Notes under the pieces: model-generated
Told to the model about the DNA's origin: nothing
The model's input: only the letters and a program-made list of their open reading frames with translations
The model's database searches: none
In this document: positions 28,438-46,069 of the stretch, piece after piece
Layout: each line of letters starts with the position of its first letter
Position numbering within the stretch: position 1 is the first letter of the stretch
Source of the DNA: an uncultured Bacteroidota bacterium
GTDB taxonomy: Bacteria; Bacteroidota; Bacteroidia; JABEUT01
Assembly (NCBI GenBank): GCA_963767125.1
Contig: CAVYDB010000007.1
Location: 78,083-142,082 of the forward strand
Direction of reading: 5' to 3'
Length of the DNA: 64,000 nucleotides
Made by a program: the position numbers and the translations under genes

Positions 28438-28791
28438 GTTATCTACAAATACTACTTACTATTTACTCAATATGGATCATAACTTATAACTGACAAAATG
28501 AAATACTACGAATTTAATTACACAAACGGCTCTTATCAAATAAATAGCAACCCCGGCTTTAATCCCCTGTGGATAGCAGCAGCGCTGGGTTTATTAATGC
28601 TTCTTATCGCTTTACTATACCATTAATATGATACAATTCTCAACCTGTAAAGGAGCCCTGTTTCACCTTATTCCGTTGCCCTTTGTGGCGATGGGAAAAT
28701 GTGAGGCATGCAATGCAATCGTGTTATTACCCGGCATAAACACAGGTACTGAAATATTTACCATTCAACTACATTTTAAATCAACAAAACC

Positions 28792-29118
28792 ATGAAAAGG
28801 ATAGAAACAAGAAACGAGGTAAAAGCCATAGTAGATATGAACCCCGATGGAATTTCACTTACGCATTTGATGAATAAATTTCAGCGCATTACAACCCGCC
28901 TCCAACTGCGCACTATGCTGGGTGCGCTTTTTACCAACAGCGAAATAAGCAGGGAACGGATTTGCATACACAACCGACGGGTAACAAAATATTTCCCTTT
29001 TAACGGTACCCCGCCTGTGAAAAAAAAGAGAAACAAGGTAAAAGAAAGAAACAGGAAAATGCTGTCTATGAAAGATTTTATGCCGGGCAGAAAATACAGC
29101 CCCTACATAGATTTTTAA
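28792..29118 (+). CDS. Hypothetical basic protein, possible winged-helix DNA binder
   Basis: 108 aa. ISLTHLMNKFQRITTRLQLRTMLGALF followed by the basic tail VKKKRNKVKERNRK. Inference only. Confidence 0.4.
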   Translation: MKRIETRNEVKAIVDMNPDGISLTHLMNKFQRITTRLQLRTMLGALFTNSEISRERICIHNRRVTKYFPFNGTPPVKKKRNKVKERNRKMLSMKDFMPGRKYSPYIDF

Positions 29119-29256
29119 CTCATTACGGAAGCAATAATGGAACCGGTTAAGTTGACAGAAGCTGCAGGCGCGCTGATAATCGTATGGATTATTGTGCTGC
29201 TTTCCTGGGAAGAATTTATAGCGTGGTGGACCAATAGAGATAATGATAATTGAGAT

Positions 29257-29877
29257 ATGGGCAAAGATCCGGCATTCCTGTTTTACACTTCCGATTTCCT
29301 GATGGGAACTATGCTGTTGTCGTTTGAAGACAGGGGGAAATACATCACCCTGCTGTCTTACATGCACCAGTCGGGCAGGGCAACTGAAGAAACAGTAAAG
29401 TCGCTGGTGGGAGATACTTCAGCCAAACTAAAAATAAAATTTAAAATAGATACTAAAGGATTATGGTATAATGAACGGCTGGAGCAAGAGATTGCAAGGC
29501 GTAAAAAATTTTCAACCCGTTGCCGTGGTAATGGAAAATTAGGGGGGAGGCCACCACTTGGAAATCCTAAAATAATTTCACTTGAATCTCAGGGAAATGA
29601 AAAATATCCGTTTGAGAAATTCTGGAAGATGTATGACAAACCTACCGAAAAAATAAGTTGTGCATTAAAGTGGGTAAAGTTAACTGAAAATGAAAAAGAA
29701 CAAATCTTTCAGCGCCTGCCTGCTTATGTAACTGCCACACCCGAAAGGCAGTTCCGGAAGAACCCGCTCACCTATTTAAACCGCAAAGCCTGGATGGATG
29801 AGATATTGCCGGAACCTCATAAACCGGTTAAAAAATCGGCCATTGAAATATTGGTGGAAACAGGAAAGTATGAATAA
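29257..29877 (+). CDS. DUF1376 (YdaU-like) phage replication-associated protein
   Basis: N-terminal PAFLFYTSDFLMGTMLLSFEDRGKYITLLSYMH is the DUF1376 signature. Confidence 0.65.
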   Translation: MGKDPAFLFYTSDFLMGTMLLSFEDRGKYITLLSYMHQSGRATEETVKSLVGDTSAKLKIKFKIDTKGLWYNERLEQEIARRKKFSTRCRGNGKLGGRPPLGNPKIISLESQGNEKYPFEKFWKMYDKPTEKISCALKWVKLTENEKEQIFQRLPAYVTATPERQFRKNPLTYLNRKAWMDEILPEPHKPVKKSAIEILVETGKYE

Positions 29878-30415
29878 CCGCCCAAAAATAGCATCGCTCA
29901 CAGAAAAGGAACTTGGCGCCCTTTTGTCAGCGGCATTTTTCATTATAGGGAAGGATATTCGGTTACCGGCAGATAAATTAAAACTGTTTTTAGGAGAAGT
30001 ATATAAGTACCAGGGAGGGAAATATGTGGATGATTTCAATGAAGCATTTTCAAAATATGCAGCGCTTGAATTACCGAATGCTGAAACCCTGCGCCCGCAG
30101 GTATCGCCATTATTTATTAGCAGCCTGATGAAATTATATGCGAACAGGAATTCCAATAGCAGCCCGGCAAAAAAAACAGTAAAAGATAAACTGCTTGTTT
30201 TGACCCCTGAAAATAAATTTACACTTTTTGTTAAATATATTACCACCGGCAAAAGCCTGCCGGGTAACCCTGACTGGGTAACTATTTACGAATACCTCAC
30301 CGGGATAAATAAACTCCTCCTTCACCCGGAATGGGGCTCTATGGGTTACCACCATAAATGGAAATATGCCATGCAAACGCTTACAGAGTGGGCTTACAGG
30401 AACTATAACCTATGA
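29870..30415 (+). CDS. Hypothetical early phage protein
   Basis: ATG 29870 overlaps the upstream stop (ATGA). The track ORF starts earlier, inside the previous gene. Confidence 0.5.
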   Translation: MNNRPKIASLTEKELGALLSAAFFIIGKDIRLPADKLKLFLGEVYKYQGGKYVDDFNEAFSKYAALELPNAETLRPQVSPLFISSLMKLYANRNSNSSPAKKTVKDKLLVLTPENKFTLFVKYITTGKSLPGNPDWVTIYEYLTGINKLLLHPEWGSMGYHHKWKYAMQTLTEWAYRNYNL

Positions 30416-30434
30416 AAGATGAACAAGAAAACAA

Positions 30435-30698
30435 ATGAACAATATGAAAAAAATAGCGGCAATGCAGGAATACCTTCAACAGCTTTATGAAACGTATGAT
30501 GTGTTTCAAACGGAGTACAGGCACTTACACAAACGTTCAAAAATGCACGATACCGAACCGGTGGCTGAATACTACCTCCGCTGGAGAGACCGTATGCGGG
30601 CGGAAATACGAAGGATTGAAACGTTACTGATTAAGCTCCTGCCCTACCCCTGCAAACCGTGTATCAATACCGGAATAGAGATGAATGATAAGGTATAA
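30435..30698 (+). CDS. Hypothetical early phage protein
   Basis: 87 aa, helical, same orientation. Confidence 0.45.
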   Translation: MNNMKKIAAMQEYLQQLYETYDVFQTEYRHLHKRSKMHDTEPVAEYYLRWRDRMRAEIRRIETLLIKLLPYPCKPCINTGIEMNDKV

Positions 30699-31172: not shown

Positions 31173-31204
31173 AAAAAAACCCGCCACTATCTGGCGGGTT
31201 TTTT
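31173..31204. terminator. Bidirectional intrinsic terminator
   Basis: AAAAAAA-CCCGCC-ACTATCT-GGCGGG-TTTTTT. It separates the early block from the convergent T9SS gene. Confidence 0.8.
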
Positions 31205-31225: not shown

Positions 31226-33313
31226 TTATTTCACCACATCCACCCGTTGAACCAGGGTGCTGCCATTTTGCAAAATCACTTTCAGGATATAAACTCCGGT
31301 AGGGAATTGGCTGGTATTGATAACCGATAATTGTGAATTTTCTGAACCATTGAATTGGTGGGCATAAACTTGCTGGCCGGTAATAGAATATACTTCTATA
31401 GACTGAGCCGCTTTCTGCCCTTGTAATTGAACGGTAAATTCATCGGTGGCAGGATTAGGATATACTGCTATGCGGGCATTATTGGTAATAGTGGGGACAC
31501 CTACCGTGCAACTGCTTACAATAATACTCTGCTGGGCGGTACTGCCACATCCGGCTGAATCGGTATAAGAGTACGTAAAATTATATGTACCTGGTCCGGC
31601 AGCATTTGGGTTAAACACGTTCCCTGTTAAATTTGGGCCACCATACATACCACCGGCAGGAATACCAAAAAGGGTGTCTGCCAATAAGGAATCGCAAGCA
31701 GAATAAATCCCTGCATTCAGAATAACAAGCGGTATAGGCAGCGTGGTAACATACGCTTGCGCTGAATCATAACAGCCATTGGTATCATTTACAAATACAT
31801 AATATCCTATAGTACCTGTATCGGCAGGAACAGTAAGGGTATCTTCGGTTTGTCCATTATAATCCCAGGTATAAGTCAGCGGACCCATTCCGCCGGAAGC
31901 CCCGGCAGTCAATAATACCTCCGTATTAGCACATATTGATGGGTTTGGAGGGGTCAGCGTAATCGTAATAGCAGCAGGTTGGGTAATTACCACCGTACCC
32001 GTACCGGAACATCCTATACCATCGGTAATAGTAACCGTATAAGTTCCGGCAGATACATTGTCAACTTCAGAATTGGTACTGCCCGTTGGCGACCAGGAGT
32101 AAGTATAAGGAGCAAAAGGAGAAACCGGGAATGCTACAATTATACCATCGGTGCCTCCGTTACATTCCGGGTAGTTATATGATACCGCAGTGGCAGAGTC
32201 GCCCACACAGCCCGGGGTGATTTTTCTAATCCTGTTGTTTCCCAGGTCAGATATAAAGAGGTTTCCGTTCGCATCGGGTATCGCATCAAACGCATAATTT
32301 ATTTCAGCAAGATAAGCCGCTCCGCCATCGCCGCTAAATCCGGCAGTGTTATCTCCGGCAATGGCATACATAGTATTATTACTTGCAACTACTTCCCAAA
32401 CTAAGGCATTACCCGGGTCGGAAATAAAAACATTACCGTTAGCATCGGTAGTTACATTGGTAGGGTCCCAAATTTCGGTAGTATCAGGTGTGCCTGAAAA
32501 CCCGTTAAAACCTGGTGTCCGGTTTCCGGCAAATGTGCTGATTACCCCTGCGGCAGTAACCTTACGAACATCATTGCTATTATATTCGGCTATATACATA
32601 TTTCCGGTAGGGTCAATAGCTACACCGGCCGGTTGGTTTAATTCAGCAAGGGTAGCCTGTGCGCCGTCGCCGGAAAAGCCTCCATTATTTGTGCCTGCTC
32701 CAAAACCATTTCCCGCTACTGTTGTTATAACTCCGGTGCCTACGGTTACTTTACGAATTACATGGTTGGTTTGGTCAGCTATATATACGTTCTGCGCATT
32801 ATCAAGGCATATTCCCGTGGGGTCGGCAAATTCAGCCGCCGTAGCTTGTCCGCCATTGCCGGTATATCCTCCAAAACCGTTTCCGGCTATGGTGCTTATT
32901 CTTCCTGTACCCACAGTTATCTTGCGGATAACACCGTTTCCGTTATCAGAGAAATAAACATTCCCCGTCGGGTCAACACGTACACACACCGGGTAGTCTA
33001 TTTCTGCCGCCGTAGCAAGCCCACCATCGCCGGTATAACCGCCAACACCTCGTCCGCCTATCGTGGTTATAAGCCCCGTGGTGCTTACCTTACGGATACG
33101 GTTATTTTGAGAATCGGCTATATATATATTGCCGGTAGCATCTACGGCAACACTGTTGTTTTGGTCCAGGTCGGCAAGCGTAGCCTGTATATTATCTCCA
33201 TTATACCCGGCTGCAGCTCGGCCGGCTACGGTAGATATGATTCCCGATTGGGCATGCAACATGGCAAGGGACGAACCCAGCGCAACGAATGTAAATGCAA
33301 GTAGTTTTTTCAT
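31226..33313 (-). CDS. NHL-repeat + SprB-type repeat protein with T9SS C-terminal sorting domain
   Basis: Signal peptide ...LAMLHAQ. About seven repeats follow of the type TVAG.G..GY.GDGG.AT.AE...P.GV..D..GN.YIAD..N..IRKV. A Cys-rich SprB-like segment (CNGGTDG...YTYSWSPTG...GTYTVTITDGIGCS) comes next. The C-terminus is VYPNPATDEFTV...IEVYSITGQQVY...TGVYILKV. Confidence 0.7.
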   Translation of the reverse strand: MKKLLAFTFVALGSSLAMLHAQSGIISTVAGRAAAGYNGDNIQATLADLDQNNSVAVDATGNIYIADSQNNRIRKVSTTGLITTIGGRGVGGYTGDGGLATAAEIDYPVCVRVDPTGNVYFSDNGNGVIRKITVGTGRISTIAGNGFGGYTGNGGQATAAEFADPTGICLDNAQNVYIADQTNHVIRKVTVGTGVITTVAGNGFGAGTNNGGFSGDGAQATLAELNQPAGVAIDPTGNMYIAEYNSNDVRKVTAAGVISTFAGNRTPGFNGFSGTPDTTEIWDPTNVTTDANGNVFISDPGNALVWEVVASNNTMYAIAGDNTAGFSGDGGAAYLAEINYAFDAIPDANGNLFISDLGNNRIRKITPGCVGDSATAVSYNYPECNGGTDGIIVAFPVSPFAPYTYSWSPTGSTNSEVDNVSAGTYTVTITDGIGCSGTGTVVITQPAAITITLTPPNPSICANTEVLLTAGASGGMGPLTYTWDYNGQTEDTLTVPADTGTIGYYVFVNDTNGCYDSAQAYVTTLPIPLVILNAGIYSACDSLLADTLFGIPAGGMYGGPNLTGNVFNPNAAGPGTYNFTYSYTDSAGCGSTAQQSIIVSSCTVGVPTITNNARIAVYPNPATDEFTVQLQGQKAAQSIEVYSITGQQVYAHQFNGSENSQLSVINTSQFPTGVYILKVILQNGSTLVQRVDVVK

Positions 33314-33745
33314 AGTTTTATAATAAAATAAATTTAGCAGTTTTAATGATTAATTTTTTTTAAGTTTCAAGGTTCTCTGAAAGGCGTTACAAAAATCAAT
33401 ATGCAATATTACAAAAAATATGCTTCTGTGCAACAAAAAGCATAAATTATTAGTAATTTATTAATAACCAGTGACATTTCATCTCCGTTTATCTTGTTTT
33501 CAAGTAGGTTTTATTACCAGGTAGGTTTATAACAAAAGATTCTGAAAGCCCGATAATATAGATTTCTTTCCAGACCTGATGGGGGTATATCTGTACTGGG
33601 TTTTAAGTGAGAACGGCGAATTAGAGGGGAAGGGGGAAGTGGGGGCATATCCTTTTAAGCTTGGCTTTGTTTGTAAGTACAACTTACTTGTTATTAACCC
33701 ACTAAGCACAGCTTAGCGGGTACGGGGGCTTGGGGCATAACCTAC

Positions 33746-35128
33746 CTATTTTATAATTACTATTTTATCTCTTTTCACTATATTATTATCTACCGAAATT
33801 CTGTATAAATAAATGCCCTCACTTAGCGTACTTGCATTAATGTTCATTTTATCACTATTGGCATCCAATGTATATTCCGCCAGTTTTTCTCCTAACATAT
33901 TGTAAATGGTAAATTCCCCGGTTTGTCCCGTCTGCAATTGATACGTTAGGGTGAAGCCTCCGTTATTGGGGTTGGGGAAAACAGACACTTGCCCTTTTTC
34001 CATCTGTAAATTATTAATTCCAAGCGGGGTTCTCCATTGAGCAATATTATTGGCTGGAGTCCCTCCGGCATTAGTGAAAGTGCCGGCTGCAAAAAGTGCA
34101 GCGTTAAAATTATACAAGGAATAAACATACCCATTCATTCCCGAACCGAATGTTCCCCAGGTTGCTCCATTCCAATAGGCGATATTCTTTGCAGGTATGC
34201 CTCCTGCTGTATCAAAAATTCCTCCAACACATACAGCCGAATCATATACACATAAACCGAAAACATAATGATTGAGATGCAAATTATAAGGTATTCCAGT
34301 TCCTAACTGAGCCCAGGTGGTCCCATTCCACATAGCGATATTATTGCCCGGTTGTCCTCCGGCGCTATCAAATTGCCCTCCTACATAAAGAAGATTATTA
34401 AATACTGCCATACTTAAAACAGAGCCGTTTTTACTGATTCCCCCATTTACCGCAGTCCATGTCGTTCCGTTCCACTTTGCAATATTATTCACTGCAATAC
34501 TACCTGCACTATCGAAAGTACCACCCGCATAGAGTTCACCATTATAAGTACATAGAACATCAATGGGGACATAATTATTACGGCTATTACGAATGCCTGT
34601 TCCTACAGATGCCCATGCCGTACCATTCCATTTGGCAATATTGGTAGTATTCATTCCCCCGGCACTATCAAAATAGCCTCCTGCATAAAGTTCCCCGTTG
34701 TATATACATAAGGCATTAATTACAGCATTCGTAGTATATGATATTCCTAAGCCAACCGGCGCCCAAAGTATTCCATTCCACGCAGCAATAGTATAAACAG
34801 GCAAAATTCCTGAACTGTCAAATCGTCCTCCGGCATATAAAAGACCATTATAAACACATAGCGCATTAACCTCATTATTTAACCCTGAATCTAAGACAGA
34901 CCAACTTGTTCCATTCCATTCTGCTATACCATTACATCGTCTCCCGCCTGCATAATTAAAATCTCCTGCGGCATAGAGATTGTTTTGAAATTGAGTTTGT
35001 GCATATACTCCGCCCAAGGCTGACCCCGGAGAATAAGATATGATTCCATGGTTAAGAGAATCCCAATTTTGAGCATTAACGAAAAGGAAACTAAAAACGA
35101 AGCCAGAGAGTATGAGTAGTTTTTTCAT
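33746..35128 (-). CDS. Beta-propeller repeat protein with T9SS C-terminal sorting domain
   Basis: The ATG at 35128 gives signal MKKLLILSGFVFSFLFVNAQ. About 7 repeats follow of NIA.WNGT.W...G.G......V.AL..YNG.LYAGG.FD.AGG. The C-terminus is VFPNPNNGGFTL...FTIYNMLGEKLAEY...EGIYLYRISV. Confidence 0.7.
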   Translation of the reverse strand: MKKLLILSGFVFSFLFVNAQNWDSLNHGIISYSPGSALGGVYAQTQFQNNLYAAGDFNYAGGRRCNGIAEWNGTSWSVLDSGLNNEVNALCVYNGLLYAGGRFDSSGILPVYTIAAWNGILWAPVGLGISYTTNAVINALCIYNGELYAGGYFDSAGGMNTTNIAKWNGTAWASVGTGIRNSRNNYVPIDVLCTYNGELYAGGTFDSAGSIAVNNIAKWNGTTWTAVNGGISKNGSVLSMAVFNNLLYVGGQFDSAGGQPGNNIAMWNGTTWAQLGTGIPYNLHLNHYVFGLCVYDSAVCVGGIFDTAGGIPAKNIAYWNGATWGTFGSGMNGYVYSLYNFNAALFAAGTFTNAGGTPANNIAQWRTPLGINNLQMEKGQVSVFPNPNNGGFTLTYQLQTGQTGEFTIYNMLGEKLAEYTLDANSDKMNINASTLSEGIYLYRISVDNNIVKRDKIVIIK

Positions 35129-35313
35129 AGCATTTAATTTTGACCAAATATGATTATTCAAATCCTTTTTGTCAAGCTACATTTATTAAATGGCGGGTTT
35201 GACTTATTAAACGGTGGGTTTTGGGGGATAAAAAGAGGTTTTATCGCTCTATAATCACCTTCCCTTCCCCGAACCCCGCTCTTTCCTCCCCCCCATGGGG
35301 GAGAGCATATCTT

Positions 35314-36723
35314 TTACTTCTCCACCACCACTTTCCCTTCCCCTTCTAAACTACCGTTCTCACCTGTTACCCTATAAAGATAAACCCCGTTAGGTTGATT
35401 TGTCAGGTTAATCTCATTCAAAGCCCCTTTAGGGGTTTGGGGCTGAAGGGTTTCAGCCAGCACTTTTTCTCCTAATACATTATAAATCTCGACTGACAAC
35501 TGATTACTAATAACTGACGACTGCATGGTGAAAATGCCATTATTTGGATTAGGGTAAATTATCAACCCTGCGCCATCAAAACTTGTGTGATTAATATCAG
35601 TGGCAATCAGCCCGATTACCTTGCGGATTATATTATTACCCCAATCGGCAATGTAGAGGTTTCCGGAAGCATCACAAGCTACGTCGCTAGGGTCTTCCAA
35701 TTCAGCGGCTGTGGCGGGTCCTCCGTCCCCACTGTAACCATATCCGAAAGAAACATTCCCCGCTATAGTGCTTATGATTCCGAAGGTATTTACCATGCGG
35801 ACTACTTGAAGATTAAAATCGGCAATATAAAGGTTTCCAGAACGGTCGAAAGTTACACCATAGGGAGCATATAATTCAGCGCCTGTGGCGGGTCCTCCAT
35901 CCCCGCTATAACCAGCACCGTATCCATTATTCCCTGCTACAGTACTGATGGTTCCGGACGTATTCACCTTACGGATTATATAATTATCATTATCTGCAAT
36001 ATAGAGGTTTCCGGAAGCATCAAAAGTTATTCCTTCAGGATAGTATAATTCAGCGGCTGTGGCGGGTCCTCCGTCACCGCTGTAGCCTGGTCCTAATATA
36101 TAATTACCGGCTACAGTGCTTATGATCCCGGAAGTATTCACCATCCGGATTACGCTATTACCCCAATCAATAATGCAGAGATTGCCGGAGACGTCTAAAG
36201 CTACTCCTGCAGGAGAAGATAAATCAGCGGCTGTGGCGGGTCCTCCGTCACCATTGTAACCACCTATGTGATTACCCGCTACGGTACTTATGGTTCCGGA
36301 CGTATTCACCTTACGGATTATATTATTATTCATATCTGCAATATAGAGGTTATCGGAAGCGTCAAGAGCTACTCCGTAAGGATAATTTAATTCAGCAGCT
36401 GTAGCGGGTCCTCCGTCCCCGCTATAACCGGCTCCATGTGCATGATTACCCGCTACTGTACTTATGATTCCGGAGGTATTCACCTTGCGGATCACTTGAT
36501 TATACATCTCTGCAATGTAGAGGTTGCCGGAAGCATCAAAAGCTACTCCGTTTGGTCCATTTAATTGAGCGGCTGTGGCGGGTCCTCCGTCTCCATAATA
36601 ACCGGCTCCAAACGCATAATTACCTGCAACAGTAGAGATGGTTTGAGCACTGCAAAAAGTGAAAAGTGAAAAGCCAAGAACTAAGAGTGAAAATACAAGT
36701 CTTAAGGTAAGTTTTGTTTTCAT
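35314..36723 (-). CDS. NHL-repeat protein with T9SS C-terminal sorting domain
   Basis: Eight near-regular repeats IISTVAGN...GYSGDGGPATAAEL..P.GV..DASGNLYIAD..N.IIRKVNTSG. The C-terminus is IYPNPNNGIFTM...VEIYNVLGEKV...NGVYLYRVTGENG. Confidence 0.75.
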   Translation of the reverse strand: MKTKLTLRLVFSLLVLGFSLFTFCSAQTISTVAGNYAFGAGYYGDGGPATAAQLNGPNGVAFDASGNLYIAEMYNQVIRKVNTSGIISTVAGNHAHGAGYSGDGGPATAAELNYPYGVALDASDNLYIADMNNNIIRKVNTSGTISTVAGNHIGGYNGDGGPATAADLSSPAGVALDVSGNLCIIDWGNSVIRMVNTSGIISTVAGNYILGPGYSGDGGPATAAELYYPEGITFDASGNLYIADNDNYIIRKVNTSGTISTVAGNNGYGAGYSGDGGPATGAELYAPYGVTFDRSGNLYIADFNLQVVRMVNTFGIISTIAGNVSFGYGYSGDGGPATAAELEDPSDVACDASGNLYIADWGNNIIRKVIGLIATDINHTSFDGAGLIIYPNPNNGIFTMQSSVISNQLSVEIYNVLGEKVLAETLQPQTPKGALNEINLTNQPNGVYLYRVTGENGSLEGEGKVVVEK

Positions 36724-36889
36724 AAAACTTTAATTTGACGGTAAAGATACAATTATTTCTAAGGCATCACTTTCCTGTTTTTGCTAGCCTGTTCTTTACT
36801 ATCCCCCAAGGGGGAGAGCATAACTTTATCTTTCTATTATTATTTTTGCAATTCCGTGTGATTATATTCAGGTTGATTTTTATTTCTGT

Positions 36890-38659
36890 TTATTTCTGAA
36901 TTATCAATTTCCCTTGTCCAACCAATTCGCCATTCTCACTTAAAACCCTGTATAGATATATTCCATTGGGTTGAGAAGAAAGATTTATGTTGAATGTTGA
37001 GTTTTGAAGGTTGGATTGGGGATGCACTTGTTGACCAAATACATTATAAATCTCCACCGTTGACTGATGACTGGCCACTGACGACTGAATACTAAAATTG
37101 CCATTATTCGGATTGGGGAAAACTATTACCCCTATGTCTTCTTTGGGAGGCGAGTGCACCGTTGTGACTACATCTCCACATTCTCCCCATCGGGCTATAA
37201 AAGGAGAAAGATTTTCACTTGGAAAGTTATTATGGTAAGTAAAAGGGGTAACTGTATCACCTCCAAAAGACATTACGGTTGCAGTAGTACTTCCAAAATA
37301 AATATAATTGCCTGAGGTATCAGAGGAAATGGAATTAGTTTGTCCGCCTCCTCCTGATATTATTGAGGAGCATAATGTATTTCCATTTGAATCTAATTTG
37401 AAAACTATAGATGCTTCATCATACATAGAAGTATCGAAAAGACTCACGGTATCGCCTCCAAAAGCAACTTTACAATTATAGTAACCACCACCAACTGAAA
37501 GATAAATATGCTTATAATTATCTATTGAAAGTCCTCCCACAACCCACTCGTTGCTATCCAAAACTTCACAACTTTTTGCCCAAAGAACATTTCCACCCGA
37601 GTCATATTTGGTAAGAAAAAAACTATATTGTGATTGCGGAGAAATATTTTCTGCTATCAGTGTGTCAGTTCCAATTATTACCGAATCTAAATAGTCCCCT
37701 GCAAGATAAATATTTCCTGATGCATCTGATACTAAGGCATTGCCTTCGTTTTGACAATTACTACCTGGTTGGTATGTTTGTTTTGCCCAAATAATTATAC
37801 CATCAGGTGAATATTTTACAAGAAATGCATCATCTGCATTTATTGATAGCAGTTGATAAGCCCCAAACCAAATTGTATCTGAAAACCCCCCTGTAATATA
37901 AGTATATCCTTTGGCATCATTAACTACACCTAATCCGTCTCCCTCATTGTATTCAAAAGAATGACCTGTTCCCGCGCTTGCCCACAGAATATTACCAATA
38001 GAATCATATTTAACAAGAAAAGGGAGAGGAATATGTCTGTTTCCAAACATCAATGTAGAACCAAAAAAGACTGTGTCCGCCGAAAAAATACCTGTTACAA
38101 ATACATCACCTTTAATATCAACTGAAATGGAGTTTGAGGCTACTCCACTTGAATCAAAACTGTTGGTAGTCGGAGAAGTTGCCCAACGTAAATTCCCATC
38201 AGAACTATATTTACCGACCCAATAATCTTCTGTACCGATTGTGATAGGGAAAATAAATGTATAAGAACCAATAATTGCAGTATCGAAATATGCTGCATTA
38301 ATATAAATATTCCCTGCATTATCGAGAGTAATTGTTCCTCCATTACCCCAATTAATATTCCCGTAATTGACAGATTGCCTGACCCATTGTATATCTCCGG
38401 AATTATTATATTTTACTAAAAATGAACTTAATCCATTTTGGTTATGAGGGGGATTTATCAAAATACTATCCAAGAAACTAAGTGTATCATCACTATAATA
38501 ATACCCACTTAAATAACAGTTACCGAGACCATCAGAACCAGCAGATTCACCGAATCCATAACCAATACCACCCTTACCCCATAACCAGCTTTGAGCAAAT
38601 GAAAAATGAAAAGTGAAAAGTGAAAAATAAAATAGCAGGAGTACAATTTTCTTTCTCAT
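36890..38659 (-). CDS. SBBP-type beta-propeller repeat protein with T9SS C-terminal sorting domain
   Basis: Repeats of G..Y.TG.F.D...FG......D.FLVKY...G...WA. The C-terminus is VFPNPNNGNFSI...VEIYNVFGQQV...NGIYLYRVLSENG. Confidence 0.7.
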   Translation of the reverse strand: MRKKIVLLLFYFSLFTFHFSFAQSWLWGKGGIGYGFGESAGSDGLGNCYLSGYYYSDDTLSFLDSILINPPHNQNGLSSFLVKYNNSGDIQWVRQSVNYGNINWGNGGTITLDNAGNIYINAAYFDTAIIGSYTFIFPITIGTEDYWVGKYSSDGNLRWATSPTTNSFDSSGVASNSISVDIKGDVFVTGIFSADTVFFGSTLMFGNRHIPLPFLVKYDSIGNILWASAGTGHSFEYNEGDGLGVVNDAKGYTYITGGFSDTIWFGAYQLLSINADDAFLVKYSPDGIIIWAKQTYQPGSNCQNEGNALVSDASGNIYLAGDYLDSVIIGTDTLIAENISPQSQYSFFLTKYDSGGNVLWAKSCEVLDSNEWVVGGLSIDNYKHIYLSVGGGYYNCKVAFGGDTVSLFDTSMYDEASIVFKLDSNGNTLCSSIISGGGGQTNSISSDTSGNYIYFGSTTATVMSFGGDTVTPFTYHNNFPSENLSPFIARWGECGDVVTTVHSPPKEDIGVIVFPNPNNGNFSIQSSVASHQSTVEIYNVFGQQVHPQSNLQNSTFNINLSSQPNGIYLYRVLSENGELVGQGKLIIQK

Positions 38660-38710
38660 TAATTCTGATTAAGAAATGCGAAGGTACAACATTGCGCTAT
38701 AAGAAACTGT

Positions 38711-38947
38711 TTATTTTATAATTACTATTTTATCTCTTTTCACTATATTATTATTTACTGAAATTCTGTATAAATAAATACCTTGGCTTAAGTTGCTTGC
38801 ATTAATGTTCATTTTATCGCTATTGGCGTCTAATGTATATTCCGCCAGTTTTTCTCCTAACATATTGTAAATGGTAAATTCCCCGGTTTGTCCTTTCAGT
38901 AATTGATACGTCAGGGTGAAGCCCCCGTTATTCGGGTTGGGATATAA
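38711..38947 (-). pseudogene. Orphan T9SS CTD-coding fragment (no signal peptide or body)
   Basis: Own translation: LYPNPNNGGFTLTYQLLKGQTGEFTIYNMLGEKLAEYTLDANSDKMNINASNLSQGIYLYRISVNNNIVKRDKIVIIK*. It is near-identical at nucleotide level to 33746-33985. An in-frame TGA at 38966-38968 cuts off anything upstream. Confidence 0.85.
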
Positions 38948-38963
38948 GTTAAAGCTGAACCAA

Positions 38964-39080
38964 GTTCAGCATGACTACAAGATAAACATATCCTCCCAAT
39001 CCAACGGAATTTATTTTTATAGGATGCTGAAAGAAAATGGTGATTTAATTGGCGAAGGAAAGGTGATGATAGAAAAGTAG
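38964..39080 (+). pseudogene. Second orphan CTD-coding fragment, convergent with the first
   Basis: Own translation: VQHDYKINISSQSNGIYFYRMLKENGDLIGEGKVMIEK*, which is the last ~35 aa of a CTD only. It abuts the minus-strand fragment at the palindrome GCTGAAC-CAA-GTTCAGC (38954-38970). Confidence 0.75.
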
Positions 39081-39412
39081 GGATTTTAGCGCAAATTATG
39101 GCGTTAAAATAGAGCAGTAAATAATGAAAATGCATTTATCGTATAATTTTTTATTAACCTTTGCTTAACTAAAAACACCCCCTGAAACTCAATAGGGACA
39201 CAAGTCTTGGGGAATAGCCTCATACTCTGAATGTTAAGTAGCCGGATTTATGTCTCGCCCAAACGCCAGCCCGAAACATTCCTGCCCGAAAGGCATGGTC
39301 AGGCGGGCATTCTGGCGGGTACCATCCGGTATGGGCGGGCGTTTTATGCCGTTATTTTTATGGCTTAAAGTTCATTAACATTTCCTATCTTGGTCCTCAT
39401 AAAATTACTTGT

Positions 39413-41023
39413 ATGATAAAATCATTTACCTTTTTAGTATTTTTCATCTTCGGCTCCCTGCTTGCAGCAGGACAAAGCTGGGAATGGGCTAAGCAAGGCC
39501 TGGGCGCCTCCGGCGAAGGCATGGCAGTGGCAACCGATAAAACCGGAAATTCTTTCCTCACCGGAAATTTTTACGATACCCTGCATTTCGGTTCCAATAC
39601 TATCTCCACCCCTTCGGGAGATGTTTTCCTGGTAAAATATGATGCAAGCGGAAATGCATTGTGGGCAGTGCAATCTACCGCCGGATACGGGGCTTTCCCC
39701 TACTCCCTCGCCACCGACGATTCGGGCAATGTGTATATGACAGGCACCATTCTGTCACACATCACCTTTGATACCATAACGCTAAATGGCGCCGGAATAT
39801 TTATGGTGAAATATGACGGGAATGGCGCCGTTAAATGGGCTAAACGACAAAATTTCACCAGGGGGTTGTCGGTTTCGGTTGATGCGGAAGGGTTTCCGTA
39901 CTTCGCCGGAGACTTGTACCTGCTAAAATACAGCCCTAACGGTACTTTGCTTTTTGCTCTTAATTTCTCAACTAATGCCGAATGTTTTGGGATTTCAGCC
40001 ACGCCGGGCAAAAGAACCGCCAGTGCAGAATATATTACAGGCTATTTCAAAGGCAGCGCTATATTCGGCTCCGATACATTGGTTTGCAATAGCAGCACCG
40101 ATAATATTTTTCTTGTGAAATACGATTCGGCGGGGAATGAACTGTGGGCAAGGCAATCTGAAACACCGGGGTTTATGTATTCCTATATCACCAATGGCGG
40201 TTGGTGTGCGGTAGCCGCCGATATTAATGGGAATGCGTATATCACCGGGTTTTATAACAGCAGTATTTCGTTTGGAGCCGATACGCTGCCTTCGGGGTAT
40301 AACCTTTACCAACCTAATATGTATGTTGCCAAATACGATGCAAACGGGAATGTAAAATGGGCAAGTTCCATTTCATCTACCGATAGCTCTGTGGTAGGTG
40401 GATACGCTATTGCTGCTGATACTAATAATGGAATTTATTTTTCGGGCAGCTGCACTCCAAATCATACAAATAAAACATCGGTTACCTACCGGAGTGATAC
40501 CTTCAGTATCATTAACCCGGGCGATGCAGCCATTTTTATGGAATGTGATTCATCGGGCGCAGCGCTATGCGGGGGCTTGTTACGGAGCGGAGGTGATGAT
40601 AATAGCAGTGTGGCATGTGACCTTACGGGGAAATATATTTACTTCGGAGGCGATGCTGAATTTCAAACTATTCTTGGTACAGATACAGTGGGTTTCGGCG
40701 CCGACAGTGTAGAATTGCCTTTTGTAGCCCGCTGGCAAAACTGCTCCGGCGATATAATATCGGGTATTAATAAAGCCAAAAACAAGGAAGGAATAAATGT
40801 ATATCCCAACCCCTTTGATGCTTTTACTACCATTGCTTTAAGCAAAGGCGGCGAATATATCCTTGAAGTAGATGACCTGACCGGAAGAACAATAAAATAC
40901 ATAGAATTTACAGGAACAGAATATGAACTAACCGAACAGGGCTTGGCAAAAGGAATTTATTTTATTCGTGTATTCGATAACGAAAAAAATATAATTGGGG
41001 TAAGTAAGGTTGTGGTGCAGTAA
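39413..41023 (+). CDS. SBBP-type beta-propeller repeat protein with T9SS C-terminal sorting domain
   Basis: Signal peptide ...LLAAGQS. Repeats are GN.Y.TG.F...I.FG.DTL......D.FLVKYD..GN.LWA. The C-terminus is VYPNPFDAFTTI...GIYFIRVFDNEKN. It is an inverted paralog of 36890-38659. Confidence 0.7.
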   Translation: MIKSFTFLVFFIFGSLLAAGQSWEWAKQGLGASGEGMAVATDKTGNSFLTGNFYDTLHFGSNTISTPSGDVFLVKYDASGNALWAVQSTAGYGAFPYSLATDDSGNVYMTGTILSHITFDTITLNGAGIFMVKYDGNGAVKWAKRQNFTRGLSVSVDAEGFPYFAGDLYLLKYSPNGTLLFALNFSTNAECFGISATPGKRTASAEYITGYFKGSAIFGSDTLVCNSSTDNIFLVKYDSAGNELWARQSETPGFMYSYITNGGWCAVAADINGNAYITGFYNSSISFGADTLPSGYNLYQPNMYVAKYDANGNVKWASSISSTDSSVVGGYAIAADTNNGIYFSGSCTPNHTNKTSVTYRSDTFSIINPGDAAIFMECDSSGAALCGGLLRSGGDDNSSVACDLTGKYIYFGGDAEFQTILGTDTVGFGADSVELPFVARWQNCSGDIISGINKAKNKEGINVYPNPFDAFTTIALSKGGEYILEVDDLTGRTIKYIEFTGTEYELTEQGLAKGIYFIRVFDNEKNIIGVSKVVVQ

Positions 41024-41106: not shown

Positions 41107-41715
41107 ATGATATTCATAGACGTCCATAATTATGTGGGAACAGGGAGTCAATTTGAGAATCTATTACCCATTGTGGCGGCTTTTTTGGGTGCTTTAGCAG
41201 CGGTTAGATATCAATATTGGCTAATAGATAGAAGACGAAAAGATGATACATTGACAGAAATAGCATTCACTTGTGACCAATTATTGAGACACGCAATAAC
41301 TGCAGAAAAAAATCAACTTGTTTTTAAATTCCAGGAATGGATGTCTATTAAATACGCCAGTATTGATTTTAAAAATGAGCTTATGAAATTTGGGAACATA
41401 TCCTTAAAAGCTAATGGCAACTTTTACTTGACAAAAGGATTGTTGATGAAATATACACGAAATCTAAGAAACTATGACTCCAAGACAGCTGATCTAATGG
41501 CAATTTCAATGAGTAAAGTTGATGCCTATAAGATGCGAAGCTTCAAAGATGAATTTTCTCCGACTGAAGATGATTATCGTAAAATGTATGAACATTGTGA
41601 TAAGATAAACAATCAAATACATACTGATATTATTGACGGTAAATTAGGCAAACATTTGATAGAAATAATGGCTCTTGCGAAAGTAAATGTACATCTAAGT
41701 AAAAGAAACACTTAA
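41107..41715 (+). CDS. Hypothetical membrane-anchored protein in an AT-rich islet
   Basis: 202 aa with one N-terminal TM (LLPIVAAFLGALAAV). The rest is helical and Lys/Asp-rich, with no motif. Local G+C is visibly low. Confidence 0.5.
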   Translation: MIFIDVHNYVGTGSQFENLLPIVAAFLGALAAVRYQYWLIDRRRKDDTLTEIAFTCDQLLRHAITAEKNQLVFKFQEWMSIKYASIDFKNELMKFGNISLKANGNFYLTKGLLMKYTRNLRNYDSKTADLMAISMSKVDAYKMRSFKDEFSPTEDDYRKMYEHCDKINNQIHTDIIDGKLGKHLIEIMALAKVNVHLSKRNT

Positions 41716-41995: not shown

Positions 41996-42526
41996 TCACA
42001 AGGGAAATGTCCCTTTCAAAAAGGTTTTCAATACTACCCAAAGCAGCAGAAACAACAAGGCAATTCCTACTACCGTGCGGCAGAAATAATCGTACCAATG
42101 GGCTTTATAGACATCATTTTCCGCAACACCAACCTGCACATGTTCCTTAAAATTGCTGATTATTTTATCTCGTATCGTTATTTCCTGTTTCAAGCTGTCG
42201 TCTTTACAAATAACGGTTACTTTCCCCGAATCAATATGGAGGGTAGCTGTTTCTAATCCCGATTTTACTGTTTTATTATAATGCGTTGGGCAGGGCTTAT
42301 CCATAAGGAATGTATCATGAAGCGTAACCGATTGAACGGGGAAATTAATTATGCTGTCACGGGTCAGGTATTGAGTAATGCTTGACGTACTGTCTTTTTC
42401 TATTGGCTTAAATAATTCCGGGTGCTTATTTTCCAAATGCTGAAGTTTCTGCCGGGGGGAACAGCTGATAAAGCTGATGGCTATTAGCCAATAGGTGATA
42501 GCTCCAGATATGATATTATTTTTCAT
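41996..42526 (-). CDS. Candidate unimolecular spanin (N-terminal lipoprotein signal + C-terminal TM helix)
   Basis: The N-terminus WLIAISFISC is lipobox-like. The C-terminus VVGIALLFLLLWVVLKTFL is a TM helix. It is the last gene of the lysis cassette. Confidence 0.45.
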   Translation of the reverse strand: MKNNIISGAITYWLIAISFISCSPRQKLQHLENKHPELFKPIEKDSTSSITQYLTRDSIINFPVQSVTLHDTFLMDKPCPTHYNKTVKSGLETATLHIDSGKVTVICKDDSLKQEITIRDKIISNFKEHVQVGVAENDVYKAHWYDYFCRTVVGIALLFLLLWVVLKTFLKGTFPL

Positions 42527-42552
42527 CGTCTTTCGTTTTTAGCTGAAAGCCA

Positions 42553-42807
42553 TCAGCTATTGGCTATGGGCTGGTTATTCGATTTATTCATCTGTACTGC
42601 CGTCCATCCTTTCACGGCATATAATCCGTTTATAAAGCCCACCAATACTAATATCAGCCCAATATCAACGGGCTTATCTTTAACCGTGTCCCAGGCTATG
42701 GTGAACATAATAGTTGCCATAGTTGCGAATGCGCAGATAGCCTTTCCGGAGCCTTTCTCTCCTTCCAGCAAGGTGCCTTTTATAATGTTCCAGAGTGTTT
42801 GGGTCAT
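42553..42807 (-). CDS. Holin-like small membrane protein
   Basis: 84 aa with two TM helices (AICAFATMATIMFTIAW, IGLILVLVGFINGLYAV) and a polar C-terminus. It lies next to the endolysin. Confidence 0.5.
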   Translation of the reverse strand: MTQTLWNIIKGTLLEGEKGSGKAICAFATMATIMFTIAWDTVKDKPVDIGLILVLVGFINGLYAVKGWTAVQMNKSNNQPIANS

Positions 42808-42878
42808 TCTTGTAGCTTATAGTTATTAGTTGATAGTTTATAGTTTATGTATTACTCGTTGCATTTTGACATAAGCCA

Positions 42879-43445
42879 TCAGCTTTCAGCCATTAGTTTA
42901 CTATTATATTTAATTAAATTATAAATCCGGTTCAACCAGCCATCTAAAAAAACATCCTGGCTATGATCGTTCTTTGCCTGTGCAAACGAAATTATATCGA
43001 AGCAGTATTGCCTGCGGCGCTCTATCAGTGATTCATATAATGAACCGGCATCACATGAATTAAGGGTTTCAATAGTGGCGGGTCCAAACACACTATCTTC
43101 TGCCAGGTGTTTATTGAAAATAGTATTGATTAATTTTTGTATATCCAGTTCAGGAAAATGTTGCCCGCTGCACCATACCCAGTCGGCAATGGTGTTGGCA
43201 ATGCACTGGTCGGCAACCTGGTCGGCAAGGCATTTATCCCAATAACAGGCTTTAAATAGCTGTGTCCAGTCATCGGCCTGCATAGCCCTGAAACGATGGC
43301 GACTGGCGGAAGCATCTCCAAAAAACGAAACCCAGCTATTCCAGGTAATACCTTTATTGGTTTCCCCTCCCTTATCTGCGGGGTTATTCACATACCCGCC
43401 TTCGGCAGCAAGTATAAAGGGAACCAGCTTTGACGCACTTGCCAT
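42879..43445 (-). CDS. Endolysin, glycoside hydrolase family 108 with PG_binding_3-like C-terminal domain
   Basis: N-terminal ILAAEGGYVNNPADKGGETNKGIT is the GH108 catalytic motif. GPATIETLN lies further downstream. Confidence 0.85.
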   Translation of the reverse strand: MASASKLVPFILAAEGGYVNNPADKGGETNKGITWNSWVSFFGDASASRHRFRAMQADDWTQLFKACYWDKCLADQVADQCIANTIADWVWCSGQHFPELDIQKLINTIFNKHLAEDSVFGPATIETLNSCDAGSLYESLIERRRQYCFDIISFAQAKNDHSQDVFLDGWLNRIYNLIKYNSKLMAES

Positions 43446-43457
43446 AATACCTTCTTT

Positions 43458-43682
43458 TTATGGGTTATTAATATTCTTCCGGCTTGTACGCCAGATGTGG
43501 TACCAGCTTGCTGCGGCGGCAGATATATAACTGAACCATTGCAACCCCAGCGTAATATTTCCCGAATCAATTTGAGAAAACTGGTGATACAACTTTATAG
43601 TTGTGCCAACAGCAATTCCGACCAAAGCAATACAAAGTTCTTTTATATCCTGCGGAGCTATATTATTGTGAAAAATGGGCAT
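43458..43682 (-). CDS. Small membrane protein (second holin/antiholin candidate)
   Basis: 74 aa with hydrophobic LCIALVGIAVGTTI and WFSYISAAAASWY, immediately upstream of the endolysin. Confidence 0.4.
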   Translation of the reverse strand: MPIFHNNIAPQDIKELCIALVGIAVGTTIKLYHQFSQIDSGNITLGLQWFSYISAAAASWYHIWRTSRKNINNP

Positions 43683-43715
43683 ATTTATAATTCAGGAGCC
43701 TATTGAGATTAATTT

Positions 43716-44600
43716 CTATTGATTAAATCCAATTGGAATTGCCACCCGGTTTTGAAAGTTATTATACTGTGCGCTTAAATTAATTGCTCCACTACCCACA
43801 AAACCCATACTGATACCAAAACCGCCCTGCCCAACCGGGGAACCATTATTGTTATTCGCCATGATAAACCAATTGTAGGCAGGCAATGCGGAAGTTGTTG
43901 CAGATGTAGTCCCCTGCGCTACGCCCCTATTGTAAAACCCGGCACTTGCTGAATTAGTTCTCCAACAGGCATTCAATGATAATGTATTAGATAGTGTATT
44001 AGTTATAGCGGCAGGTGTATATACATTAATATAATAACTCAACTGAGTGGCAGAGGAGCCATTATTATAAATAGTGCAAACAGCTTTCCCCGCCCCCTGT
44101 CCGTCAAAGGCAATATCATTATCACTATTGGGAGATACAGGCGCTGAATACCTATAGTCACCAAACGATCCGTTATTTTGTGTAAAATGGCTTCCTGCGG
44201 ATGCCGGAAAATTAGTGTTCAAATACATGGTGGACTGGTTGCCTTTATAGCCTTTCAGGGCTGTCCATGTGGTACTATTCACATTTGTTATATTTCCCGC
44301 CCCTGCAAAGTTTATAAAAGGGACCGTAGAATTTGCCTGTGCATAGGTTGCAAAGAACCACAGGATATCGTATTGGGCTAAATTACCATCCATGTATTCC
44401 CCATTCACAAAGCCTGCCAGGGAACCTATTACCAAACCACCTTCATGGGGGCTGGTTTTAATTATCCATTGCTGCACAGTTTTCGGAATGGCGCTACTCA
44501 AAGGATGCGCCCTTTGAGCATTCAAAACGAAAGGGCATAAAAAGAAAATCAATATCTTTCTCAATGTACCAAGTGTGTATAATTGTTGGCGCCGGTCCAC
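43716..44600 (-). CDS. Hypothetical secreted protein in the fibre region
   Basis: GTG start and signal-like ILIFFLCPFVLNAQ. Asn/Gly/Thr-rich, no CTD. Confidence 0.45.
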   Translation of the reverse strand: MDRRQQLYTLGTLRKILIFFLCPFVLNAQRAHPLSSAIPKTVQQWIIKTSPHEGGLVIGSLAGFVNGEYMDGNLAQYDILWFFATYAQANSTVPFINFAGAGNITNVNSTTWTALKGYKGNQSTMYLNTNFPASAGSHFTQNNGSFGDYRYSAPVSPNSDNDIAFDGQGAGKAVCTIYNNGSSATQLSYYINVYTPAAITNTLSNTLSLNACWRTNSASAGFYNRGVAQGTTSATTSALPAYNWFIMANNNNGSPVGQGGFGISMGFVGSGAINLSAQYNNFQNRVAIPIGFNQ

Positions 44601-44670
44601 ATAAAATAATTTAAATAACTATCGTAATAAATAGTATAAAGGTCAATGGCATTCCCAGTGGAAGTTAAGG

Positions 44671-45948: not shown

Positions 45949-45993
45949 ACGATAAAGTAACTATCCTTTTTTATCTGTAGATTTTATACAAAG

Positions 45994-46037: not shown

Positions 46038-46069
46038 CAGTTACCGGAATTTTTTGTTTAGGTTAATAC

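What the first reader, a model, noticed from the sequence alone, without database searches (positions are those of the whole stretch)
31226..41023. Ten-kb block of five T9SS cargo genes sandwiched between the early and late phage modules
Five large secreted repeat proteins (two NHL, two SBBP, one WNGT-propeller) fill the space between a strong bidirectional terminator (31173-31204) and the AT-rich end of the late region. All have signal peptides and type IX CTDs. If they lie inside the element, they are phage-carried cargo that exploits the host T9SS, a lysogenic-conversion mode I am not aware of being described. If they are chromosomal, the flanking phage modules are two separate remnants. 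The sequence alone does not decide this.
Basis: inference. Interest (0 to 1): 0.6.

Follow-up and report, generated by a model that had tools for sequence, protein, structure and literature searches.

The report
T9SS genes inside an old prophage
Five genes for secreted surface proteins lie inside one old prophage that sister species share; they look like ordinary host genes that collected in the prophage's variable slot, not a payload that a working phage delivers.

Summary
Five ORFs (31226-41023) all carry a signal peptide, a beta-propeller body and a type IX secretion (T9SS) C-terminal domain (CTD). They sit between a strong bidirectional terminator and a myovirus late module.

- **One prophage, not two remnants.** The flanks match the gene order of complete free relatives, which are 34-41 kb and carry no CTD gene.
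- **A native junction.** The block sits where the early and late transcription units converge.
- **Shared with sister species.** They have the same prophage beside tRNA-Cys, with an orthologue of the NHL-Ig gene, and probably of one SBBP gene, in the same slot. The rest of the slot differs between species.
- **Old and probably not packageable.**
  - It spans about 57 kb.
  - terL lies about 73 kb from the portal gene.
  - I found no integrase.
  - Two relatives are decayed and one lacks the element.
- **Host-like block.**
  - None of its genes has the late-promoter palindrome.
  - It carries CTD recombination scars and a dispersed host repeat.
  - It borders the genome's densest T9SS neighbourhood.

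Phage-encoded T9SS cargo already has a published precedent (Cryophage, 2020). Interest is moderate.

The parts
25154..25225 (-). tRNA-Cys, the single copy in the genome; conserved left landmark of the prophage region
   Evidence: ARAGORN. One copy per genome in 15 of 18 genomes of the genus. It lies beside the repressor in G006, G009, G016 and G005.
25285..26679 (-). T9SS cargo gene (464 aa, repeat body plus CTD) between tRNA-Cys and the repressor; paralogues lie beyond the window at L001:6386-7816 and 8019-9500
   Evidence: Por_Secre_tail hit. A counterpart sits at the same place in G006. G009 has none there.
26790..27422 (-). CI/LexA-type repressor (HTH plus S24 peptidase)
   Evidence: Pfam Peptidase_S24. 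70-75% identical homologues beside tRNA-Cys in G006, G009, G013, G016 and G004.
28018..30698 (+). Short early module: five small ORFs, no integrase, transposase or replication domain detected
   Evidence: Homologues in the same order in G006, G009, G016 and G013.
31174..31204 (.). Bidirectional intrinsic terminator at the point where early and late-side transcription converge
   Evidence: A terminator of the same design sits at the same place in G009.
31226..33313 (-). Gene 1: NHL propeller plus Ig/SprB-like repeats plus type A CTD (695 aa). The conserved slot gene.
   Evidence: Full-length orthologues (58-61%) at the same position in G006 and G009, and a 58% match over the last 222 aa in G016.
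33746..35161 (-). Gene 2: DUF5122/Rax2-type propeller plus CTD (471 aa)
   Evidence: Its CTD-coding end (33747-33976) is repeated at 38712-38941.
35314..36723 (-). Gene 3: NHL propeller plus CTD (469 aa), a member of a large host paralogue family
   Evidence: Paralogues at 72-77% nucleotide identity on contigs C32 and C49.
36890..38659 (-). Gene 4: SBBP-like propeller plus CTD (589 aa)
   Evidence: The best G009 homologue (51%) lies in a non-phage context between giant surface-protein genes.
38712..38941 (-). Orphan CTD-coding fragment, 91% identical to the 3' end of gene 2. With it, it forms 230-bp direct repeats that bracket genes 2-4.
   Evidence: blastn. An 84-codon ORF ending in a CTD at 38714-38965.
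39127..39360 (.). Copy of a dispersed repeat of about 230 bp, directly upstream of gene 5
   Evidence: blastn hits of 84-97% identity on at least 12 contigs.
39413..41023 (+). Gene 5: SBBP propeller plus CTD (536 aa), antiparallel to the late genes
   Evidence: SBBP-CTD genes with the same CTD subtype and the same relative orientation occupy the slot in G004 and G013 (35-37% identity; those two are 44% identical to each other).
41107..41715 (+). AT-rich ORF of 202 aa with no family match, between gene 5 and the end of the late module
41996..62298 (-). Late module. In transcription order: protease-scaffold, capsid, sheath, tube, baseplate hub, fibre-position genes, GH108 endolysin, 176-aa end gene. 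Opposite-strand inserts at 48819-50456 and 53198-53791.
   Evidence: Collinear with G009:C35 and with complete IMG/VR genomes.
8841..10214 (-). Large terminase (Terminase_3), isolated among chromosomal genes. It lies about 73 kb from the portal gene but carries the late-promoter palindrome.
   Evidence: Pfam. Motif at 10495.

Best explanation
The five genes lie inside one long-resident prophage, probably defective or domesticated. They sit at the point where its early and late transcription units converge, which serves as the element's variable slot.

Shown:
- The flanks follow the gene order of complete free relatives.
- Several sister species have the same element beside tRNA-Cys.
- The NHL-Ig-CTD gene is a positional orthologue in four species. 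An SBBP-CTD gene probably is in three.
- The rest of the slot differs between species: an amino-acid permease in three, and SprB or CarboxypepD_reg genes in one.

Inferred:
- The slot has taken up host-type genes over a long residence.
- In this genome it grew by recombination between CTD-coding repeats of the host's roughly 200-member T9SS cargo repertoire. The CTD is the C-terminal sorting domain that the T9SS recognises.
- The genes are transcribed from their own host-type promoters, not from the phage late promoter.
- Their products act as ordinary T9SS cargo. Sec exports them by the signal peptide, the T9SS translocon recognises the CTD, and the PorU sortase removes the CTD and releases the protein or anchors it on the surface.
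- Today they are chromosomal surface-protein genes that happen to sit in phage-derived DNA, not a payload moved between cells.
For: One prophage in canonical order:
- Seven near-complete IMG/VR relatives show terL, portal, wedge, protease, capsid, sheath and hub in one run. The window plus L001 shows the same order except for terL.
- G043 has divergent early and late arms, so their far ends converge on a circular map.

Same architecture in G009:
- Contigs C35 and C134 overlap by 100 identical bases. The joined order is late genes, endolysin, 174-aa gene, permease, 229-aa gene, NHL-Ig-CTD, terminator, early genes, repressor, tRNA-Cys.

Conserved slot genes.

Long residence:
- The element lies beside the single tRNA-Cys in G006, G009, G016 and G005.
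- An aldo-keto reductase (AKR) gene lies on the same contig as portal or sheath genes in G000, G004, G005, G009 and G013.
- Phage proteins are 49-81% identical to those of relatives, against 55-87% for host proteins in the same genomes.
- G005 and G006 are decayed and G002 lacks the element.

Probably not packageable:
- The element spans about 57 kb (26.7-83.5 kb). Free relatives are 34-41 kb, with one at 51 kb.
- terL is displaced.
- No integrase or replication domain appeared in the early region.

Host-like block:
- None of 30 related viral contigs holds a CTD.
- No late palindrome lies in 31-42 kb, although it heads terL and five late units.
- 230-bp direct CTD repeats bracket genes 2-4, and a dispersed repeat lies at 39127-39360.
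- Paralogues reach 72-77% nucleotide identity elsewhere in the genome.
- The right chromosomal flank holds 18 CTD ORFs in 60 kb.
- G+C is 41.7%, close to the chromosome's 41.4% and above the phage modules' 39.8%.
- Phage-free G002 has NHL-CTD and repeat-CTD genes beside tRNA-Cys.
- The host has a PorU sortase.
Against: - Almost all virion ORFs are intact in G000 and G009 despite 25-40% protein divergence, and the late-promoter palindromes are intact too. That argues for selection on the phage genes, so the element may still work as an inducible phage or a domesticated particle.
- T9SS genes occupy the slot in five species. They also make up about 7 of about 16 non-phage genes inside the element, against about 6% of genes genome-wide. 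That would also fit selective retention of such cargo by the phage.
- One family member is 51 kb, so the size argument is not absolute.
- All relatives are fragmented metagenome-assembled genomes (MAGs). Absences, including the missing integrase, are weak evidence.
Confidence: 0.55

Rival explanations
1. Genuine phage cargo (morons) of an active temperate myovirus. The phage packages the block, delivers it to new hosts, and makes lysogens coat themselves through the T9SS with propeller proteins, for example to mask receptors against superinfection.
For: The block is inside the prophage, at a classic moron position bounded by terminators. T9SS genes occupy the same slot in five species, and two genes are conserved there. 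The repressor, late promoters and virion ORFs are intact. Cryophage is a published precedent. Another case is noted in this scan (e1-1534273), which I did not check.
Against: None of 30 free relatives carries a CTD gene. The span is 1.4-1.6 times the family's genome size. terL is about 73 kb from the portal gene and terS is not local. No integrase was found. The element is fixed at one locus, with divergence close to that of host genes and with decayed copies. Host dispersed repeats and CTD scars lie inside the block.
Confidence: 0.2
2. Domesticated, vertically inherited phage-derived particle system (GTA-like, or a retained inducible particle). Its structural genes are kept by selection and co-regulated through the shared palindromic promoter. 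Its non-essential junctions are free to fill with host genes such as T9SS cargo.
For: The locus is conserved across a clade, and divergence matches that of host genes. terL and three terS-like genes are dispersed yet carry the same promoter palindrome. Virion ORFs are intact in G000 and G009. Host genes (AKR, permease, glycosyltransferase, T9SS genes) are interspersed. No integrase or replication genes were detected.
Against: G005 and G006 are decayed and G002 lacks the element, so it is dispensable. A prophage-type S24 repressor and an early module are retained. No evidence of particles or of host-DNA packaging exists. Incomplete genome assemblies could hide the missing genes.
Confidence: 0.13
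3. Two unrelated prophage remnants that happen to flank a piece of ordinary chromosome carrying T9SS genes.
For: The early module is very short (about 3 kb), and the late module lacks terL and terS in place. The surrounding chromosome is rich in T9SS genes. A permease, a typical chromosomal gene, follows the late end in G009, G016 and G004.
Against: The early-junction-late arrangement recurs in G009 (contiguous after the contig join), in G013 (one contig), and piecewise in G006, G016 and G004. It also matches the circular map of complete relatives. Two independent remnants would not keep this arrangement across species.
Confidence: 0.07

Closest known systems
Phage-encoded T9SS cargo of 'Cryophage' (Bellas et al. 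2020, Nat Commun 11:4403; PMC7468147)
   Same: Genes with type A T9SS sorting domains lie in variable regions of a Bacteroidota-associated phage genome, and their content differs between variants. The proposed idea is the same: the host T9SS exports them.
   Different: Cryophage was assembled as a free phage genome, and its cargo are enzymes and a PA14-domain protein. Here the genes are propeller proteins in an integrated, oversized and probably non-packaged prophage that was inherited with the host. Free relatives of this prophage carry none.
Morons and lysogenic-conversion genes at module junctions of temperate phages (established knowledge, for example lambda bor/lom and P2 accessory genes)
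   Same: Non-phage genes bounded by terminators are inserted between transcription units and read independently of the phage lytic programme.
   Different: Classical morons are one or two genes that travel with a packageable genome. This slot holds 10 kb of host-family paralogues, and I have no evidence that the element is still mobile.
Flavobacterium myophages vB_FspM_lotta8/pippi8 and F. psychrophilum FPSV phages, and about 219 IMG/VR contigs with a related sheath
   Same: The sheath is 36% identical to the cultured phages and 36-45% to the IMG/VR contigs. The IMG/VR relatives share the virion gene order terL, portal, wedge, protease, capsid, sheath, hub.
   Different: Their genomes are 34-41 kb and continuous, with terL beside the portal gene. 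The 30 IMG/VR contigs searched hold no CTD gene; I did not search the cultured phages for CTDs. The element here spans about 57 kb with at least five blocks of inserted genes.
Gene transfer agents and other domesticated prophages (RcGTA-type; established knowledge)
   Same: A conserved chromosomal locus, dispersed packaging genes, no recognisable integration or replication genes, and interspersed host genes.
   Different: This element keeps a prophage repressor and early module, decays in some relatives, and has no data on particles or DNA packaging.

Membership tests
T9SS type A cargo protein (TIGR04183 / PF18962) | C-terminal sorting domain matching the family model above its curated cut-off, at the extreme C-terminus | tested here: met
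   All five score 34-57 bits (cut-off 27) in Pfam and 39-52 bits (cut-off 23) in NCBIfam, each ending at the last residues.
T9SS type A cargo protein (TIGR04183 / PF18962) | N-terminal Sec signal peptide | tested here: met
   Hydrophobic N-termini ending in AQ/GQ in all five translations. By eye; no predictor was run.
T9SS type A cargo protein (TIGR04183 / PF18962) | Host encodes the T9SS machinery | tested here: met
   PorU sortase at G000:C25:79519-82932, 1189 bits against a cut-off of 420. The genome has 203 ORFs ending in a CTD. Other core components were not searched.
T9SS type A cargo protein (TIGR04183 / PF18962) | Secretion that depends on the T9SS, with CTD cleavage | not testable with these tools
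   Needs secretome or surface proteomics in wild type versus a porV/porU mutant.
Phage moron / lysogenic-conversion cargo | Located inside the borders of a single prophage | tested here: met
   Collinear with complete relatives. The same junction is contiguous in G009 and G013.
Phage moron / lysogenic-conversion cargo | Carried by free (packaged) genomes of the phage lineage | tested here: not met
   None of 30 related IMG/VR contigs, 7 of them at least 90% complete, has a Por_Secre_tail match. These relatives share only 36-45% sheath identity, and no closer free genome was found.
Phage moron / lysogenic-conversion cargo | The element can excise and package itself | not testable with these tools
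   Indirect evidence is against it: a 57-kb span against 34-41 kb for the family, terL displaced, and no integrase found.
Phage moron / lysogenic-conversion cargo | Autonomous transcription unit (own promoter and terminator), independent of the late programme | tested here: inconclusive
   A terminator lies at 31174-31204 and no late palindrome lies in 31-42 kb. Host-type -7-like boxes were seen only by eye. There are no expression data.
GTA-like domesticated prophage | Vertical inheritance at a fixed locus across species | tested here: inconclusive
   The tRNA-Cys locus and the AKR gene among the virion genes recur in several clade members, with divergence like that of host genes. No phylogenetic reconciliation was done.
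GTA-like domesticated prophage | Particles package host DNA rather than the element itself | not testable with these tools
   Needs particle purification and sequencing.

The most novel reading that the evidence does not exclude
The convergent junction of this prophage lineage is a selected T9SS cargo slot. Each host species keeps a different set of propeller proteins there, next to a conserved NHL-Ig gene, because the surface coat they form protects the lysogen, for example by masking receptors against competing phages. The phage-derived element itself is kept as a co-regulated particle system with dispersed terL and terS genes. That would be a Bacteroidota parallel to gene transfer agents or retained prophages whose accessory slots feed the T9SS.
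Probability: 0.15. Interest if true: 0.7.

Novelty: new member of a known kind. Interest (0 to 1): 0.38.

Why it matters
T9SS cargo genes are the largest and fastest-changing surface-protein repertoire of many environmental Bacteroidota, and how that repertoire turns over is poorly understood.

This locus shows that a resident prophage's module junction can act as a landing pad. There, cargo genes are gained, swapped and truncated by recombination between their shared CTD-coding ends.

If the element proved inducible, it would be a second, independent example of phage-borne T9SS cargo, and the first in a temperate phage. It would also give a testable route for horizontal spread of surface coats.

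As it stands, the finding is a well-documented case of host-gene accretion in an old prophage, not a new mechanism.

Tried and rejected
- **Empty-site mapping.** The aim was a close relative with both chromosomal flanks joined. The only phage-free close relative (G002) has a contig end 2.8 kb beyond tRNA-Cys. Flanking synteny is poor across the genus: genes flanking the G014 AKR and the G005 tRNA map to other contigs in G000. So I could not define exact borders or att sites.
- **Integrase search.** In G009, three 300-320-aa ORFs between the repressor and the early genes gave no recombinase match to solved structures.
- **Orthologues beyond the genus.** The genome-contig scan with the NHL-Ig protein returned only 34-47% relatives in unrelated chromosomal contexts and left out the window's own genus. 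It gave only a hint that the host is a Chitinophagales-like member of the Bacteroidota.
- **Mu-like transposable phage.** I considered this because of the Mu-I-like protease-scaffold. No transposase was found, and free relatives have direct terminal repeats, so I dropped it.
- **Contractile injection system.** I considered this for the sheath, tube and hub cluster. Capsid, protease and portal genes are present, so I rejected it.
- **Tool limits.** I compared relatives with concatenated protein queries through the genome search instead.

Full report
**1. The observation**

The window is G000:C7:78083-142082. Each ends in a type A T9SS sorting domain, the C-terminal domain (CTD) that the type IX secretion system recognises, above the curated cut-offs of Pfam PF18962 and NCBIfam TIGR04183.

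| Gene | Coordinates | Body |
|---|---|---|
| 1 | 31226-33313(-) | NHL propeller plus Ig/SprB-like repeats |
| 2 | 33746-35161(-) | DUF5122/Rax2-type propeller |
| 3 | 35314-36723(-) | NHL propeller |
| 4 | 36890-38659(-) | SBBP-type propeller |
| 5 | 39413-41023(+) | SBBP-type propeller |

- All five N-termini read as signal peptides (by eye).
- The bidirectional terminator at 31174-31204 is strong.
- The stretch 41-42 kb has 30% G+C.
- The host has a PorU sortase.

**2. The flanks**

- On the left are tRNA-Cys (25154-25225), another T9SS cargo gene (25285-26679), an S24 repressor (26790-27422) and about 3 kb of small plus-strand ORFs.
- On the right, on the minus strand, is a myovirus late module. 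It runs from the protease-scaffold (61162-62298) through capsid, sheath, tube and baseplate hub to a GH108 endolysin and a 176-aa end gene (41996-42526).
- Beyond the window (L001) the same strand carries fibre, wedge and lysozyme genes. Then come two more T9SS genes, a 1414-aa ATPase-like ORF, an aldo-keto reductase (AKR), an ORF6N-like gene, and then the portal gene and a 342-aa gene.
- terL lies alone at 8841-10214 among chromosomal genes.

**3. One prophage, not two remnants**

- The sheath has 219 relatives in IMG/VR at 36-45% identity. Its nearest cultured relatives are Flavobacterium myophages of 34-35 kb.
- Seven near-complete contigs of 36-41 kb (one of 51 kb; three with direct terminal repeats) all show terL, portal, wedge, protease, capsid, sheath and hub in one run.
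- Read on the minus strand, the window plus L001 shows the same order, except that terL is elsewhere.
- In G043 the early genes run one way and the late genes the other from a common point. On a circular map their far ends therefore converge. That convergence is where the T9SS block sits.

**4. Sister species**

Concatenated protein queries against 40 relatives mapped the element in the same genus.

- **G009.** The end of contig C35 and the reverse complement of the end of C134 overlap by 100 identical bases. The locus is therefore contiguous. Its order is late genes, endolysin, 174-aa gene, amino-acid permease, 229-aa gene, NHL-Ig-CTD (58% identical to gene 1), a bidirectional terminator, early genes, repressor, tRNA-Cys.
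- **G006 and G016.** Both have the NHL-Ig-CTD orthologue converging on the early module (61% identity; 58% over the last 222 aa).
- **G013.** One contig shows the early genes, then SBBP-CTD, SprB, CarboxypepD_reg and SprB-CTD genes, then the late-end gene coming the other way.
- **G004.** After the late end comes the permease, then an SBBP-CTD gene.
- **SBBP-CTD genes.** Those of G000 (gene 5), G004 and G013 share one CTD subtype and the same orientation relative to the late genes. They are 35-44% identical.
- **Gene 4.** Its best G009 homologue lies elsewhere, between giant surface-protein genes.

So the slot held T9SS genes before these species diverged, and the rest of its content has turned over.

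**5. Age and state of the element**

- tRNA-Cys is single-copy in every genome that has it. It lies beside the repressor in G000, G006, G009, G016 and G005.
- An AKR gene lies on the same contig as portal or sheath genes in G000, G004, G005, G009 and G013. The same AKR (79-81% identical) exists in phage-free genomes. In G014 it sits in a plainly chromosomal setting.
- FeoB identity splits the genus into a near clade (85-87%: G009, G006, G004, G005, G002, and probably G016) and a far clade (65-71%). Every phage-bearing genome that could be placed falls in the near clade. G013 could not be placed.
- Phage proteins are 49-81% identical to their counterparts, against 55-87% for host proteins in the same genomes.
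- G005 keeps only fragments of the repressor and portal genes plus the wedge and fibre genes. G006 has no sheath. G002 lacks the element altogether.
- The element spans about 57 kb, from 26.7 kb to the promoter of the 342-aa gene at 83.5 kb. That is 1.4-1.6 times the family's genome size.
- I saw no integrase, transposase or replication domain.

Together these points indicate a prophage acquired by the clade's ancestor and inherited since. It is now oversized and probably not packageable as a unit.

**6. The block looks like host DNA**

- None of 30 related viral contigs has a CTD match. The same search finds at least 150 in G000.
- I re-derived the late promoter from the upstream regions. It is the palindrome GTCAWTGAC, 26-27 bases upstream of a TAnnTTTG box. 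It precedes terL (10495) and late units at 46037, 53126, 62381, 67793 and 83492. No copy lies between 10.5 kb and 46 kb.
- The CTD-coding end of gene 2 (33747-33976) recurs at 38712-38941 at 91% identity on the same strand. The two copies bracket genes 2-4 as direct repeats, a mark of recombination between CTD sequences.
- A repeat of about 230 bp at 39127-39360 has copies on at least 12 contigs.
- Gene 3 has paralogues at 72-77% nucleotide identity on C32 and C49.
- The genome holds 203 ORFs ending in a CTD. The prophage borders the densest such neighbourhood, with 18 in the 60 kb to its right.
- Phage-free G002 has an NHL-CTD gene and a repeat-CTD gene directly beside tRNA-Cys.

**7. What remains open**

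- The virion ORFs and promoter palindromes are intact in G000 and G009 despite deep divergence, so some selection acts on them.
- T9SS genes are over-represented among the genes inserted in the element: about 7 of 16, against about 6% genome-wide. Tandem arrays and the local neighbourhood weaken that figure.
- I therefore keep two rivals alive: an active phage with real T9SS cargo (0.2) and a domesticated particle system (0.13).

**8. Comparison with what is known**

- Phage-encoded T9SS cargo was reported for Cryophage, with variable content between variants (PMC7468147).
- This case is a new example of a known kind. What it adds is comparative evidence for a conserved slot, for its turnover, and for CTD-mediated recombination.

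**9. Verdict**

- The reading "inside the element" is right in position.
- The reading "two remnants" is rejected.
- The reading [quoted passage not shown] is not supported by the evidence and is not new.
- Confidence in the best explanation is 0.55. Interest is 0.38.

Noticed in passing
G000 contigs C14:~31.4-31.8 kb(-), C20:~55.9-56.3 kb(+), C25:~85.0-85.4 kb(-) (outside the window): Three isolated genes of 134-141 aa each sit behind a perfect copy of the late-promoter palindrome (GTCAWTGAC, 27 bases, TAnnTTTG). They resemble the 131-aa ORF directly upstream of terL in G009, a likely small terminase. No virion genes were seen in the 4 kb downstream. They may be satellite-like or remnant packaging genes tied to the same regulator.
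   Followed up: partly
window 39127-39360: A dispersed repeat of about 230 bp, with copies at 84-97% identity on at least 12 contigs of the genome. This copy lies directly upstream of a T9SS gene. It could be a MITE-like element or a shared 5' leader or promoter of T9SS genes.
   Followed up: partly
window 62381-62392 (both strands): Palindrome copies at the same spot sit at the promoter spacing on both strands. On the minus strand a one-mismatch copy (CTCATTGAC, 62381) precedes the prohead protease. On the plus strand a perfect copy (62384) precedes the unit that ends in a second ClpP-fold gene (63145-63693). This suggests divergent late promoters.
   Followed up: partly
L001:9792-14036 (+) (window-equivalent 73792-78036): A 1414-aa ORF with a Walker-A-like GKGKSH motif lies between the two T9SS paralogues and the AKR gene, inside the prophage span. 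G009 has no counterpart at this position. It may be a defence NTPase.
   Followed up: no
window 48819-50456 (+): A PMT_2/ArnT-type membrane glycosyltransferase (33% G+C) is encoded antisense inside the baseplate and fibre part of the late module. It is a classic candidate for surface modification by a prophage.
   Followed up: no
L015:1085-1184 and L022:14503-14602: G009 contigs C35 and C134 end in the same 100 bases in opposite orientation. The two contigs therefore join across the NHL-Ig-CTD 3' end and its terminator.
   Followed up: yes
window 8841-10495 and L116:1688-3920: terL is detached from the rest of the virion genes in both G000 and G009, and it sits in different chromosomal contexts in the two genomes. 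The two terL proteins are only 52% identical, against 73% for the portal proteins. They may not be orthologous.
   Followed up: partly
L027:4397-5436 (G005:C10): In G005 the site beside tRNA-Cys holds repressor fragments followed by an IS1595-type transposase fragment. The window has an IS1595 fragment (23308-23628) on the other side of the tRNA, near arr.
   Followed up: no
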